Numbered from the stretch's first letter, positions 11,318 to 14,812 are shown. The stretch is DNA of 64,000 bases from Promethearchaeota archaeon (GCA_029838195.1 JALGVJ010000002.1:133893-197892); one strand, 5' to 3'. The notes: generated by a model not told the origin, from the sequence alone. Numbers and translations: made by a program.

Positions 11318-13018
11318 TTAAGAATAATATTTTTTTATTTCTTTAATGACGAGGTGGATTAAATCTTTTTCATTCTTAATAGCATAAAAAGAGACCTTGT
11401 CAAGTAACCCTTTAAACTTATTTTTTGGGATTTTCTCAGATCCAATAAAAAACCCTACGATTTTATGACCTTTTTGTACCAGTTCTAATAGCAATTGTTT
11501 AGAACGTGTCCAATTATAAATACCAAAATCCGTGATAATGAAAATAAGGACGTTACCTTCTGCCTTATTAACTTGTTTTTTGATAGCTTTAATTGGAAGT
11601 TGAGTTCCTCCTCCTTGGTATCTTAATAAAACGTTTTCTGCTTCGTGATAATTCTTAGACCATTCACAAATTTCAGCATGGTTAGAAAAATTAATCACGC
11701 TAAATTTAACACCTTTCATGCGTGCTTGATGTAAAATGGCAAAAGAAGCAACAAGAGCGGCGTGATAAGGCCCCCTCTCATTTTTTACGTGTTCCATAAA
11801 ATTCCAGTACATTGAACCTGATGAATCCAATACTATTAAGAGATCCGGCATCCTTTTTTCTTCTACACGTCCAACACCCCTCTCATGTTTCCATTTCTTC
11901 GTGGTAACATTAGGAATAATGATAGGAGAAGTTACGATCGTGAGAATGGCATCTAATTCTTCTATAGGATCTCCGATCCTCCATTTTTCAGGATATAGGG
12001 GTAGAGTGCCACTATATTTTTTTTCATAAATTTTAATTGAAATCAAATTATTAGCTAAGCCTCGATACCACGTAGCTAGTGCATTTCCATCGATTAAAAT
12101 TCCTGATTGTCTTGCGGGGGCTCCAAATTCCGAATAAGGTATATTTTTTGCAAATTCCTCCGCTTTTTTTCTTAATTCATCTTCATTGTCTTTTTTTAAT
12201 TTATCTGAATTTTTCGTTTCTAAGGGATTATCTATGATTTCTAATACATCATCGGGAATCTCCATTTCAAGCTCATATCCTGGAATTTTTCTACGCGATT
12301 TTCCTTTTAAGGGGGCCCCTGCTCCCCTCATTATTGTAAATTCCTCCTTTAAGAAATCTTTTAGATAATAAGCGACTTTCGAAACTTTTTCTTCCCATCG
12401 TGAATCATCTTCAAAATCCGTTAATATAATTTTTTTAATTTTATTAGCCAAAGCATCGGTTTCTGGAGAAGTGAAAGACTCGTAAATTTTAATGTTCCAT
12501 AGTTTTTCATAAATGTTGAATAAAAATTTCGAAAATCTACTCAAGGATTTAAAATCAGGCATGGCTACATGTTCAAATGTCTTTTTAATTTCCCATTTCA
12601 TTAAATCTGGCTTAGCTTTGTATAATTTCGTGTCAATAATCAAATCAGCAAATAAATTTACAACCAATGGAGCATGAGTAGAATGAACATGTTTATTAGC
12701 AGCATGTAATAATTTTGCATGAATGATGCCATCATAAGGGATGATTTGATAATGCGATATTTCATGGAGCAAGATGGCGTGAAAATATTGGATATATTCT
12801 TCATCATCCTTTAGTGGGGGAACATTCGCTAGATTCATCGTTATTTCCCATTTATGATTAGGATCAATGTAAAAACCTTCTTTCCGCTTGTAATCAAAAA
12901 CATATCGAGGTTCATTTAAAGGAGGGAAATAAAACTCTTTTAAAGATAGATCCCATGCTATTTTGGCTAATTTTTTGAGTTTAGCTTCCTTTTCTTGTAT
13001 TATATTTTTATTGAGCAA
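11318..13018 (-). CDS. VWA-domain protein with N-terminal HExxH metallopeptidase-like domain (MoxR partner)
   Basis: LLHEISH...NLFAD; MIDAS elements LDSSGSM, GGGT, IITD; directly downstream of the AAA ATPase gene. Confidence 0.85.
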   Translation of the reverse strand: MLNKNIIQEKEAKLKKLAKIAWDLSLKEFYFPPLNEPRYVFDYKRKEGFYIDPNHKWEITMNLANVPPLKDDEEYIQYFHAILLHEISHYQIIPYDGIIHAKLLHAANKHVHSTHAPLVVNLFADLIIDTKLYKAKPDLMKWEIKKTFEHVAMPDFKSLSRFSKFLFNIYEKLWNIKIYESFTSPETDALANKIKKIILTDFEDDSRWEEKVSKVAYYLKDFLKEEFTIMRGAGAPLKGKSRRKIPGYELEMEIPDDVLEIIDNPLETKNSDKLKKDNEDELRKKAEEFAKNIPYSEFGAPARQSGILIDGNALATWYRGLANNLISIKIYEKKYSGTLPLYPEKWRIGDPIEELDAILTIVTSPIIIPNVTTKKWKHERGVGRVEEKRMPDLLIVLDSSGSMYWNFMEHVKNERGPYHAALVASFAILHQARMKGVKFSVINFSNHAEICEWSKNYHEAENVLLRYQGGGTQLPIKAIKKQVNKAEGNVLIFIITDFGIYNWTRSKQLLLELVQKGHKIVGFFIGSEKIPKNKFKGLLDKVSFYAIKNEKDLIHLVIKEIKKYYS

Positions 13019-13048: not shown

Positions 13049-14812
13049 TTATAATTCTTTTTGAATGTATTCTAATTTATCAAGAACGTTTCTCAGTTTT
13101 AATGCTTCTGCGCCACCTGAAATCTGAATGTTAACGATTGAATCCTCACTCGTTCCCGTTACATTTATTTCCATCAGTAAATCTTCTGTTCGAATTTGTT
13201 TTGTCTGACGTTTTTCGAAAGCAGCCTTGAGAGGTTGATCTAAAGTGGGAAATTCTGCTACTACATCCGCCCATAATTCTCTCCAAAATCCATATTTAAT
13301 GATATAATCTGTAACTGTCTGCCTATACAATTCTTGATTGCACCAATTAATTAAGTATGCTCTATTTGGAAAGTCTAAATTTTCTATTAATTCTTTTCTA
13401 ATTAAGGCAAGATCCTCGATATTTCCTTTTTTGGCTGCTTCACCTATTCTTGAAGCCAAGTTAGTGTAATTTTTCTCTTTTATAGCATCAACGTATGGGA
13501 TTAAATCATATTTTACAATTAAATCATTATTAGCAAATTTTTTTAATTCTTTAAAATCTTCCGGATTATTCTTTCCTTCTCTAAATTTTGCCGTAATTTT
13601 GTAACAAATTTCCCGGTTTTTATATCGTTTCTGTATTAATGATAATAAATATTTAGTAAAATGATATTTATTTCCCCAATAAGGGGCTTTATCTAATTCC
13701 CTCTTCACGTAATCTACCCGATGGGAAATAACATGGGGAGCGATCGTATTTATGATATTTACATCAATTTTTGGTAATCCTAATAGCCATGTCAAGGCTT
13801 TGGCATATCGTAAAATATCTTTTGCTACTCGAACGCTTAATATAGAGTCTATTTTATTACATATGTTTTGATCTGTATTGAAGTGACATCCCGAACATAA
13901 TCCCGTGCTCGGTTTTAATTCTTCAGAATTTCCTTTATCAATACGGGAACAAAGATTATATTCTCTCACGATTGCATGAATATAATTATTAACTTCTTCA
14001 CTAAAGGAGATTTTATTGACATGATACCAGATTTCCATTAAATCATCAATCTCAAGAATTTTAGGGACCTGAATCACCTCATCGTACCCTGAATATTTTT
14101 CATCTTTTCCGGATAAAATCAATTGTAGATCTTGCGTGGCAGGCATGGAAATGGGTACGGATATACCAAACCGATCTAAAAAAGGTTTTGAAAGTTCAAA
14201 CGTGCCTACATCTTGAGGATTAATTGTCCCATATAAGCAATATTTTGAAATTGCTAAAGTAAAGTCATAATATTTTATGGTACCCTCTGCTAACAAGGAT
14301 AATAAAATATCTTGAGCATAAGGTGTTAACCGGTTGACCTCATCAATTATTTTCCAGAAACTCAGAATGAATTCTCGCCATATTACTTCCTCTTCTCCTT
14401 CTTTCATTAATTTCCCTAATTTTAATGTTCCAATTAATTTTTCTTCCGAAAGCTGTGGATGCCCTCTTATAATGGATTGTTCGATTTGTTCTATTGACTT
14501 AGAGGTGAACATGCGCCCTAATAGCTTGACTAAGGTGGTTTGGAACAAGTCGCTGAGTTAGCCACCTTTTTTTCCTCCACCATGCCCACCAATCAATAAC
14601 ATTGCAGAATTTGGAACTATTGCATTTAACACGCATAATGTAAGAATCTCCGGTAGATTTTGGGATACAATTTTCTTATTTTTCTCATCATAATGTTTAA
14701 TTGTTAGACTCTGAGAATGGACGAATAACTGGTTGGCTTGGACAATATTAATAATTCTCCATACTTTTCTTCTTAATTCTTCCTCCTCTTTTAAATGTGT
14801 CGTCAAGTTCAT
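13049..14812 (-). CDS. MoxR-family AAA+ ATPase interrupted by a 30-nt insertion; join(14812..14570, 14539..13049), about 577 aa
   Basis: The upstream ORF ends ...LLIGGHGGGK and the downstream ORF continues TTLVKLL in the same frame (Walker A GGHGGGKTT); Walker B IIDEVNR, GTINP, PFLDRF, LSVR. Confidence 0.88.
14540..14569 (-). other. Candidate bulge-helix-bulge (archaeal-type) intron in an mRNA
   Basis: AAAGGUGGCUAACUCAGCGACUUGUUCCAA contains an in-frame UAA; the central helix GGAA/UUCC is followed by AAA on both strands; cutting after the second A of each restores K-T-T. Confidence 0.7.

What the first reader, a model, noticed from the sequence alone, without database searches (positions are those of the whole stretch)
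14534..14581. Candidate BHB-type mRNA intron splitting the Walker A motif of a MoxR ATPase in an Asgard-like archaeon
Seen: two same-frame ORFs (14558-14812 and 13049-14548) are halves of one AAA+ ATPase. The mRNA reads GGU GGA GGA AAA [AAAGGUGGCUAACUCAGCGACUUGUUCCAA] ACC ACC, so 30 extra nt with an in-frame UAA sit between K and T of GGHGGGKTT. It folds as GGUGG-A-GGAA-AA^A-A-AGGUGGCU-(AACUC)-AGCGACUU-G-UUCC-AA^A-CCACC: exon-exon helix GGUGG/CCACC, 4-bp central helix GGAA/UUCC, AAA after the helix on both strands, and an internal stem of 7 pairs with one mismatch. Established: the archaeal splicing endonuclease EndA cuts bulge-helix-bulge motifs after the second nt of each 3-nt bulge, RtcB ligates, and mRNA introns of this type are rare (cbf5 in Crenarchaeota is the classic case). 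Applying that rule removes exactly these 30 nt and restores G-K-T-T. Inference: this is a spliced protein-coding gene. The motif is relaxed (one extra unpaired nt opposite each bulge). The rest of the gene and its VWA partner show no decay, which argues against a pseudogene.
Basis: partly seen in the sequence, partly recalled or inferred. Interest (0 to 1): 0.95.

Follow-up and report, generated by a model that had tools for sequence, protein, structure and literature searches.

The report
tRNA-type mini-intron in Asgard ATPase gene
A 30-base insert with a stop codon that cuts the ATP-binding loop of a conserved ATPase gene in a Lokiarchaeia (Asgard) archaeon is very probably an intron of the kind normally cut out of tRNAs, and related genomes carry sister introns at two other places in the same gene, so these relatives of eukaryotes appear to splice some messenger RNAs.

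Summary
On the minus strand, 30 nt (window 14540-14569) with an in-frame TAA lie exactly between K and TT of GGHGGGK|TT. Eleven aligned orthologues lack exactly these 10 codons.

- The insert occurs in three lineages. Its BHB core is conserved and its inner stem covaries.
- Two insert-bearing lineages give dN/dS 0.06, so the gene is not a pseudogene.
- Orthologues carry other 30-31-nt inserts at two more sites of the same gene (RGH|PQL and TFE|LSK).
- All inserts share one layout: exon 1 ends with a 4-nt helix strand plus 2 nt, and the intron ends with the complementary 4 nt plus 2 nt.
- Over 16 inserts the central helix is paired in 63/64 cells, against 17-39/64 when the register is slid.
- The genome encodes an alpha/beta-type EndA with the broad-specificity loop, and RtcB.
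- I also verified like inserts in dnaG, elp3 and an FGGY kinase of this genome.

The closest known case is the cbf5 pre-mRNA intron of Crenarchaeota. I found no paper on such introns in Asgard mRNAs. This scan had already noted the same class on other DNA, in this genome and in another genome's copy of this gene family. What remains open: splicing itself, the number per genome, and any regulatory role.

The parts
14570..14812 (-). Exon 1 of the MoxR-like AAA+ ATPase gene (ATG at 14812; 81 codons ending ...LLIGGHGGGK)
   Evidence: It aligns with residues 1-79 of 575-aa orthologues.
14540..14569 (-). 30-nt BHB-type mini-intron with an in-frame TAA at 14558-14560
   Evidence: It is absent from the 11 aligned orthologues, and 37 of the DNA loci read have K-T-T uninterrupted. 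Homologous inserts are present in L001-L004 and L052. Removing it leaves one clean 577-codon ORF.
13049..14539 (-). Exon 2 (TTLVKLLGRMF... to the stop), holding the rest of the AAA+ core (Walker B FWKIIDEVN) and the C-terminal extension
   Evidence: (AAA_5 30.1 bits against a cut-off of 22, starting at TT).
14577..14581 (-). Helix h, 5' strand GGUGG (exon 1). It pairs with CCACC at 14534-14538. A14576 stays unpaired opposite the 3' bulge.
   Evidence: The Thr-Thr codons are ACC-ACC in all site-A intron bearers and in 0 of 37 intron-less orthologues.
14572..14575 (-). Central helix H, 5' strand GGAA (exon 1). It pairs with UUCC at 14542-14545 (intron).
   Evidence: In L052 it is GGGA/UUCU, which is still 4 of 4 paired.
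14569..14571 (-). 5' bulge AAA. The predicted cut lies between 14570 and 14569.
   Evidence: Rule: cut after the second bulge nucleotide. This gives exon 1 ending ...GGA AAA.
14546..14568 (-). Intron hairpin h': AAGGUGGC (14561-14568) with GCGACUUG (14546-14553), and loop UAACUCA (14554-14560)
   Evidence: 6 of 8 paired. There are compensatory changes at pairs 1, 3 and 5 among the three alleles.
14542..14545 (-). Central helix H, 3' strand UUCC (intron)
14539..14541 (-). 3' bulge AAA. The predicted cut lies between 14540 and 14539.
   Evidence: Exon 2 then starts ACC ACC.
14534..14538 (-). Helix h, 3' strand CCACC (exon 2, the two Thr codons)
11318..13018 (-). Downstream partner gene: HExxH (HEISH) plus a VWA domain with DSSGS, intact
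   Evidence: sequence; VWA_2 20.8 bits, below the cut-off of 27. The same gene order is seen in L003, L004 and L046.

Best explanation
The 30 nt at window 14540-14569 (minus strand) are a bulge-helix-bulge (tRNA-type) intron in the pre-mRNA of a MoxR-like AAA+ ATPase. In the transcript, exon 1 (GGUGG-A-GGAA-AA) and the end of the intron plus exon 2 (UUCC-AA/A-CCACC) pair to give an outer helix, a 4-bp central helix and two AAA bulges on opposite strands. The middle of the intron forms an 8-position hairpin. The genome's heteromeric (alpha/beta-type) splicing endonuclease EndA would cut after the second nucleotide of each bulge. RtcB would then join the exons and probably circularise the 30-mer, giving ...GGA AAA|ACC ACC... 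and an intact Walker A, GGHGGGKTT. Shown here: the insert, its structure, its conservation and covariation, purifying selection on the host gene, sister introns at two other sites of the gene and in other genes, and the presence of the enzymes. Inferred: the cleavage and ligation themselves. Unspliced mRNA would end at the TAA after 84 residues.
For: - Precise 10-codon gap against orthologues.
- Three site-A alleles exist: the window (and L004), L001-3, and L052. Their H, bulges and loop are conserved, while 9 of 30 nt differ in the inner stem, with compensatory pairs.
- dN 0.028, dS 0.455, ratio 0.062 between the window and L001, both insert-bearing. Site-C bearers give 0.04-0.07 with saturated dS. 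Every gene becomes one clean ORF once the insert is removed.
- In orthologues there are 30-nt inserts at RGH|PQL (site B) and inserts at TFE|LSK (site C; 30 nt, one of 31 nt that corrects the frame). All follow the same layout.
- In the protein database, at least 40 clusters stop at site B and at least 14 at site C.
- Register test over 16 inserts: H is paired 63/64 against 17-39/64 when slid; h' is paired 105/128 against 34-65/128. 15 of 16 inserts have H 4/4, against 0.45 expected with shuffled introns.
- The exon and intron sides of H covary: UUCG/CGAA against UUUG/CAAA, and GGCC/GGCU against GGUC/GACU.
- Exon codons are biased toward pairing: ACC-ACC in all site-A bearers against 0 of 37 intron-less orthologues.
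- EndA alpha keeps the catalytic Y/H/K and the K-P-R of the broad-specificity loop; a His-less paralogue and RtcB are also present.
- Asgard archaea are reported to have (alpha-beta)2 EndA with the L1 loop (PMC5829648).
- Relaxed motifs are typical of the cbf5 mRNA intron (PMC2738675).
Against: - There is no RNA-level evidence of any kind.
- The motif is not a strict hBHBh'. One nucleotide (A14576) lies opposite the 3' bulge, and the first inner-stem pair is A.G in this allele.
- The single-sequence fold is only about 2 sd better than shuffles.
- My own genome-wide structural scan could not separate such introns from chance motifs at gene borders, so the size of the class in this genome is not measured.
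Confidence: 0.85

Rival explanations
1. Pseudogene: a 30-nt insertion with a stop codon inactivated the ATPase, and the gene is decaying.
For: There is an in-frame TAA inside the P-loop, and gene callers split the gene into 84-aa and 499-aa products.
Against: dN/dS is 0.062 over 9% nucleotide divergence between two lineages that both carry the insert. There are no other stops or frameshifts. Homologous inserts are retained in distant lineages. The partner gene is intact. The same pattern holds at sites B and C across saturated dS.
Confidence: 0.03
2. Translational bypass: the ribosome hops over a 30-nt coding gap, as in phage T4 gene 60, helped by the hairpin and the stop codon.
For: There is a hairpin and a stop codon shortly after the last sense codon, and the gap is short and fixed in length.
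Against: Take-off and landing codons do not match at any site: AAA against CAA/UAA at site A, CAU against UAA at site B, and GAA against AAU/AAA at site C in four of the five 30-nt inserts. L046 and the 31-nt L047 do end in GAA. Bypass does not predict the exact '4-bp helix plus 2 nt' relation at both borders, which holds in 15 of 16 inserts. It also does not predict exon-intron covariation.
Confidence: 0.03
3. The insert is removed from the RNA, but not by EndA/RtcB (another nuclease/ligase pair, or self-cleavage). Alternatively, it is not removed and the two ORFs make separate polypeptides that work together.
For: No enzyme assay exists. The motif is relaxed at the 3' bulge. The downstream ORF has a possible TTG start inside the insert.
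Against: The geometry is the EndA ruler: cuts 2 nt 3' of a 4-bp helix on both strands, even where the bulges are enlarged as in L046. A P-loop cut between K and T cannot form from two chains in any known AAA+ protein (established knowledge). Rfam finds no ribozyme.
Confidence: 0.06
4. Assembly or sequencing artefact.
For: The source is a MAG with 7.9% estimated contamination.
Against: The insert is present in four other assemblies with two alleles, in a fifth unrelated metagenome contig, and in contigs of two further DNA runs with 0 differences.
Confidence: 0.01

Closest known systems
BHB intron in the cbf5 (pseudouridine synthase) pre-mRNA of Crenarchaeota (Watanabe 2002; Yoshinari 2006; Yokobori 2009, PMC2738675)
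   Same: It is a short intron inside a protein-coding gene. It is flanked by a BHB motif that is often relaxed. It occurs in organisms with a hetero-oligomeric, broad-specificity EndA. Its distribution is patchy, with gain and loss among relatives.
   Different: The host gene differs (a MoxR-like ATPase) and so does the lineage (Lokiarchaeia, Asgard). The same gene carries introns at three sites, with up to two in one copy (G122, L050). Sizes are uniform at 30-31 nt. At least three other genes in this genome have like inserts. cbf5 splicing was shown by RT-PCR and in vitro cleavage; here nothing is shown at the RNA level.
[quoted passage not shown]
   Same: The motif is the same (4-bp helix, 3-nt bulges, inner hairpin), the presumed enzymes are the same, and the lineages are the same. 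ARAGORN finds only 16 tRNA genes in this 4.5-Mb genome. That would fit heavily interrupted tRNA genes, but I did not test it.
   Different: The exon half of the motif is made of codons, not a tRNA body, so helices h and H constrain synonymous sites. An unspliced intron truncates a protein rather than disabling a tRNA.
HAC1/XBP1 unconventional mRNA splicing in eukaryotes (Ire1 cleavage, RtcB or Trl1 ligation)
   Same: It is non-spliceosomal, protein-catalysed removal of a short intron from an mRNA, followed by RtcB-type ligation. In principle it can act as an on/off switch for the protein.
   Different: The nuclease differs (Ire1 cuts in two 7-nt loops and is not in the EndA family). It is regulated by stress. 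No sign of regulation is known here.
Programmed translational bypass (phage T4 gene 60)
   Same: There is a short untranslated gap with a stop codon and a hairpin inside a coding sequence.
   Different: Bypass needs matching take-off and landing codons. Here they match only in two site-C inserts (L046, L047), and at no other site or insert.

Membership tests
Archaeal BHB (tRNA-type) intron, substrate of EndA | 4-bp central helix between the two cleavage sites | tested here: met
   GGAA/UUCC is 4 of 4 paired. It is kept as GGGA/UUCU in L052. Over 16 inserts, 63 of 64 cells are paired against 17-39 when slid.
Archaeal BHB (tRNA-type) intron, substrate of EndA | Two 3-nt bulges on opposite strands, each directly flanked by helices (strict hBHBh') | tested here: not met
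   The 5' bulge AAA is followed by an A.G mismatch (C-G in L001, A-U in L052). The 3' bulge AAA has one unpaired A opposite it, giving a 1x3 loop. This is a relaxed motif, as is usual for cbf5 introns and non-canonical tRNA introns (PMC2738675, PMC5829648). Several site-C inserts do have the outer helix h fully paired next to the 3' bulge (6 of 6 in L041 and L042).
Archaeal BHB (tRNA-type) intron, substrate of EndA | Outer helices h (exon-exon) and h' (intron) | tested here: met
   h is GGUGG/CCACC, 5 bp. h' has 6 of 8 positions paired. There are compensatory changes in h', and the exon codons are biased toward pairing.
Archaeal BHB (tRNA-type) intron, substrate of EndA | Excision at the second/third bulge nucleotide restores the functional product | tested here: met
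   Excision restores GGHGGGK|TT and a 577-codon ORF collinear with the orthologues. The same rule restores the frame for the 31-nt and 37-nt inserts.
Archaeal BHB (tRNA-type) intron, substrate of EndA | A broad-specificity splicing endonuclease and an RtcB ligase are encoded in the genome | tested here: met
   PF01974 hits lie on C1 and C8, with a fragment on C53. The alpha subunit best matches A. pernix 3p1z_B and keeps K-P-R in the specific loop. The second paralogue lacks the catalytic His. RtcB scores 553 bits.
Archaeal BHB (tRNA-type) intron, substrate of EndA | Spliced RNA and cleavage by EndA are observed | not testable with these tools
MoxR-like AAA+ ATPase with a VWA partner | AAA+ core with Walker A/B, and an adjacent VWA (MIDAS) gene | tested here: met
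   AAA_5 scores 30.1 bits against a cut-off of 22 (AAA_3 is below its cut-off). Walker B is hhhhDE in FWKIIDEVN. The partner has DSSGS and HEISH, but VWA_2 scores only 20.8 bits against a cut-off of 27. Sources name the orthologues MoxR-like or AAA family ATPase.
Translational bypass element (gene 60 type) | Matching take-off and landing codons flanking the gap | tested here: not met
   AAA against CAA/UAA at site A, CAU against UAA at site B, and GAA against AAU/AAA in four of the five 30-nt site-C inserts. L046 and the 31-nt L047 do end in GAA.

The most novel reading that the evidence does not exclude
This intron is one member of a population of about 30-nt EndA-type micro-introns in the protein-coding genes of some Lokiarchaeia. 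They are old, site-specific, co-adapted with the codons around them, repeatedly lost, and present at several sites of one gene. If so, routine mRNA splicing by the tRNA-splicing machinery would be a normal part of gene expression in close relatives of eukaryotes. Introns placed in essential motifs (P-loop, DnaG, Elp3) could also serve as splicing-dependent switches.
Probability: 0.6. Interest if true: 0.9.

Novelty: new member of a known kind. Interest (0 to 1): 0.8.

Why it matters
In the papers I could search, protein-catalysed splicing of archaeal mRNAs rests on one gene, cbf5, in Crenarchaeota and some relatives. Here an unrelated, strongly conserved gene of an Asgard archaeon needs removal of a tRNA-type intron to make its ATP-binding loop. 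The same gene carries two more such introns in sister genera, and other core genes of the genome (dnaG, elp3, a sugar kinase) are interrupted in the same way. Three consequences follow. (1) Gene callers mis-annotate these genes as fragments or pseudogenes, so Asgard gene inventories and completeness estimates are biased. (2) EndA/RtcB would have a role in mRNA maturation in the lineage nearest to eukaryotes, which bears on how intron-containing protein genes and their tolerance arose. (3) The system is directly testable with a short transcript and two recombinant proteins.

Tried and rejected
- RNA evidence: no RNA holder is listed for the gene. The one read-laying run could only confirm the DNA.
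- Genome-wide census by structure: H 4/4, h' at least 6/8, bulges starting with A, and ORFs open on both sides. In-frame joins did not exceed frame-shifted controls overall (767 against 785). With coding-potential and no-start filters there was only a mild excess at 28-40 nt (17 against 8.5; 10 against 3.5). The scan did recover this intron, dnaG, elp3 and a new FGGY case, but it cannot give a count.
- Repeat or mobile-element idea: blastn-short found no sequence-similar copy of any of seven inserts in the genome.
- Known RNA family: there are no Rfam matches at E up to 1 in 14300-14800.
- A possible fourth site near residue 144 (P0156, P0159) is not an intron. In L051 the gene is truncated and abuts an antisense prenyltransferase-like ORF.
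- Wider taxa: among 161 species representatives of the class, no stop-bearing insert was found outside family f1. Inserts without stops would have been missed.
- Pseudogene, bypass, split-protein and artefact readings are rejected for the reasons given under the rival explanations.

Full report
**What is in the window.** The gene lies on the minus strand. Its start is ATG at 14812, and the sequence runs ...CAT GGT GGA GGA AAA, then 30 nt, then ACC ACC TTA GTC....

Read through the TAA, they give a 587-residue protein in which KGG*LSDLFQ sits between K81 and T92. Pfam AAA_5 matches only from the TT onward, at profile position 13. So the first part of the P-loop is cut off from the rest.

The database search returned 751 relatives, and the best 120 were listed. 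Nearly all of those are 575 aa long, 70-75% identical and come from Lokiarchaeia/Promethearchaeota. In an alignment of eleven of them, the window has exactly ten extra columns between the invariant GGHGGGK and TT.

By the BHB cleavage rule:
- the intron is 14540-14569;
- exon 1 is 14570-14812;
- exon 2 is 13049-14539.

**Is it real DNA?** Yes. Three lines of evidence agree.
- The 84-aa and 499-aa products each sit in small clusters with members from other assemblies.
- I fetched four loci. L004 is identical to the window. L001-L003 are three nearly identical MAGs and carry a second allele.
- Contigs of two further public DNA runs from different studies span 14496-14666 with no difference and no gap.

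**Structure.** Its parts are:
- outer helix GGUGG/CCACC;
- one unpaired A;
- central helix GGAA/UUCC;
- AAA on both strands just 3' of that helix;
- an inner hairpin.

The z-score (-1.98) is modest, so the case rests on comparison. In allele 2 the nucleotide after the 5' bulge is C and pairs with G, which makes that side a canonical 3-nt bulge.

A third, homologous site-A intron (21 of 30 nt identical to the window's) lies in L052. This is a short metagenome contig whose exons are only 67% identical to the window's protein and 78% identical to an intron-less group. Among the three alleles:
- the bulges are invariant, the loop changes at one position (C to U in L052), and the central helix stays 4 of 4 paired although it changes to GGGA/UUCU in L052;
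- inner-stem pairs 1, 3 and 5 change on both sides.

**Selection.** The window and L001 both carry the insert and differ at 9.2% of exon nucleotides. This gives dN 0.028, dS 0.455 and dN/dS 0.062. Once the 30 nt are removed, every copy is a single clean ORF. This excludes a decaying pseudogene.

**The same gene has two more intron sites.** A family-level search of 135 genomes with an intron-less orthologue flagged stops inside the gene in five species representatives. A class-level search of 161 genomes added none. Aligning them showed exactly 30 extra nt, each with in-frame stops, at three sites.

| Site | Position in protein | Genomes (species representatives) |
|---|---|---|
| A | K\|TT | G000 only |
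| B | RGH\|PQLTEEK | G117, G122 |
| C | TFE\|LSKPFLD | G088, G087, G122 |

G122 carries two introns. G018, in the window's own genus, has none.

In the protein database, at least 14 clusters end at ...GTFE plus zero or one residue, and at least 40 end at ...RGH plus S or N. Seven more loci gave:
- three new site-B introns (L048, L049, L050);
- three new site-C introns (L045, L046, L047);
- a second site-C copy in L050, identical to that of L039.

L047's intron is 31 nt long and lies between exons in different frames. Its removal restores the frame, and read-through could not do that. Site-C bearers give dN/dS of 0.04-0.07 with saturated dS, so these introns have persisted for a long time in a constrained gene.

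**One architecture.** All 16 inserts I examined follow the same layout:
- exon 1 ends with a 4-nt strand of H plus 2 nt;
- the intron is 1 nt, then about 8 nt of stem, a 5-8-nt loop (14 nt in the 37-nt dnaG intron) and about 8 nt of stem;
- the intron ends with the complementary 4 nt plus 2 nt.

The 16 inserts are three at site A, five at B, six at C, and dnaG and elp3 of this genome. Their statistics are below.

| Measure | True register | Control |
|---|---|---|
| H cells paired | 63 of 64 | 17-39 of 64 (3' partner slid by 1-3 nt) |
| h' cells paired | 105 of 128 | 34-65 of 128 (slid) |
| Inserts with H 4/4 | 15 of 16 | mean 0.45, maximum 4 in 2000 trials (shuffled introns) |

The first nucleotide of both bulges is A in all 16. 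The exon and intron strands of H covary: UUCG/CGAA against UUUG/CAAA at site C, and GGCC/GGCU, GGUC/GGCU and GGUC/GACU at site B. In L046 both bulges are enlarged, yet the cut sites that restore the frame are still 2 nt 3' of H on each strand. That is how EndA measures.

Exon codons also bear the mark of the pairing.
- The two Thr codons after site A are ACC-ACC in every site-A bearer and in none of 37 intron-less orthologues.
- The Gly codon inside H of site B is GGY in 5 of 5 bearers against 15 of 40 intron-less orthologues.

These counts are not phylogenetically independent and should be read as indications.

**Enzymes.** The genome encodes a 202-aa EndA that best matches the catalytic alpha subunit of the Aeropyrum pernix heterotetramer (3p1z_B, E 6e-36). 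It has the Tyr/His/Lys triad. It also aligns without gaps across the Crenarchaea-specific loop and keeps K-P-R there. That loop and its Lys give broad substrate range (PMC3241643).

A 199-aa paralogue lacks the catalytic His, as expected of a beta subunit. RtcB is present at 553 bits. Kaneta et al. report (alpha-beta)2 EndA with this loop (L1) in Asgard archaea, and cleavage of relaxed motifs only by such enzymes (PMC5829648). Yokobori et al. note that the cbf5 mRNA intron often has a relaxed motif (PMC2738675).

**Other genes in this genome.** Earlier notes of this scan listed candidate BHB inserts in several genes of the same genome. I checked two of them directly.
- dnaG: 37 nt, GAIFGQ|TEGLL, H GGCC/GGCU.
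- elp3: 31 nt, GHDVD|KIELIVMGGT, H GUGG/CCAU, inner stem 8 of 8.

My own scan also turned up a 30-nt insert in an FGGY sugar kinase (G000:C46:8849-8878, ITNQ|RETIV, H AACC/GGUU). Read through, that protein has FGGY_N spanning the insert.

ARAGORN finds only 16 tRNA genes in 4.5 Mb. That would fit the heavily interrupted tRNA genes reported for some Asgard lineages (PMC11291895; bioRxiv 10.64898/2026.10.13.758758), but I did not test it.

**Distribution.** I built a quick maximum-likelihood tree of 131 orthologues.
- A well-supported clade of 94 rows has no introns.
- Intron bearers lie outside it, interleaved with intron-less sisters. The window plus L001 are sister to G018/P0003 (SH-aLRT 98). 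L039 is sister to P0113 (95). L047 is sister to P0066 (96).
- Site C needs at least 3 changes on starred branches, and site B at least 2.

Because introns at one site are homologous in sequence, old origin with repeated precise loss is the simpler reading. Lateral spread is not excluded.

**What is not shown.** No RNA run holds the gene, so splicing, circular introns and any regulation remain inferred. My structural scans cannot count such introns genome-wide. The inserts have no sequence-similar copies in the genome and match no Rfam family.

**Comparison and novelty.** The mechanism proposed is that of the cbf5 pre-mRNA intron and of non-canonical tRNA introns. This is a new host gene in a new lineage, with several sites per gene. 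I found no paper describing BHB introns in Asgard protein-coding genes.

This scan has reported the same class before. It did so in this genome (for example e1-5540018, e1-5540011, e1-2560154) and on another genome's copy of this gene family (e1-5505439).

**Verdict.** It is a new member of a known kind, and of high interest because of the lineage and the apparent breadth of the phenomenon.

Noticed in passing
G000:C46:8849-8878 (+), held as L053:450-479: A 30-nt BHB-shaped insert with a TAA splits ITNQ|RETIV of an FGGY sugar kinase (H AACC/GGUU, both bulges AAA). Read through, the protein has FGGY_N 1-245 spanning the insert. The earlier notes I saw did not list it.
   Followed up: partly
G000:C38 minus strand (dnaG) and G000:C23:59892-59922 minus strand (elp3): A 37-nt insert in dnaG and a 31-nt insert in elp3 obey the same 'H plus 2' rule. 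Both shift the frame, so only removal from the RNA can give the protein.
   Followed up: partly
Whole genome G000: ARAGORN finds only 16 tRNA genes (8 of them with introns) in a 96.6%-complete 4.5-Mb genome. Most tRNA genes are probably interrupted beyond what the program can recognise.
   Followed up: no
All 16 inserts (window, L001, L039-L042, L045-L050, L052, G000 dnaG and elp3): Every insert lies between codons (phase 0), and the first nucleotide of both bulges is always A. Part of the phase-0 pattern may come from how I located the inserts (codon-level alignment).
   Followed up: no
G000 dnaG intron against the site-B introns in L040, L041 and L049: They have similar termini (A-G-W-U-A-A-U ... 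U-U-A-W-C-GGCU-AA) and a similar exon target (GGYC-A). I did not test whether this is chance in AT-rich sequence or kinship between introns in different genes.
   Followed up: no
L051:95-571: This is a copy of the ATPase gene that loses similarity after about residue 144. It abuts an antisense 556-aa prenyltransferase-like ORF. Five contigs carry this 145-aa product. It is a truncation or rearrangement, not an intron.
   Followed up: partly
L043 (G070:C132:24566-25162): A second, partial copy (residues 17-215) of the ATPase gene lies 2.7 kb from the intact one. It has one TAA and no extra length, so it is probably a decaying duplicate.
   Followed up: no
L007:1492-1812 (G000:C53): This is a third, partial EndA-beta-like ORF of 106 aa, very similar to part of the L006 product. 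It may be a strain mixture (contamination is 7.9%) or a duplicate.
   Followed up: no
L003:682-1219: The MoCF_biosynth gene is called in two pieces (111 + 68 aa) in this MAG, whereas the window, L001 and L002 have 178 aa. I did not examine it.
   Followed up: no
Protein P0250 (90 aa, ENA): It ends ...GGNGGVK SAFEKF*. This may be another site-A interruption in the lineage that also has sites B and C (N-terminus like P0219/P0220).
   Followed up: no
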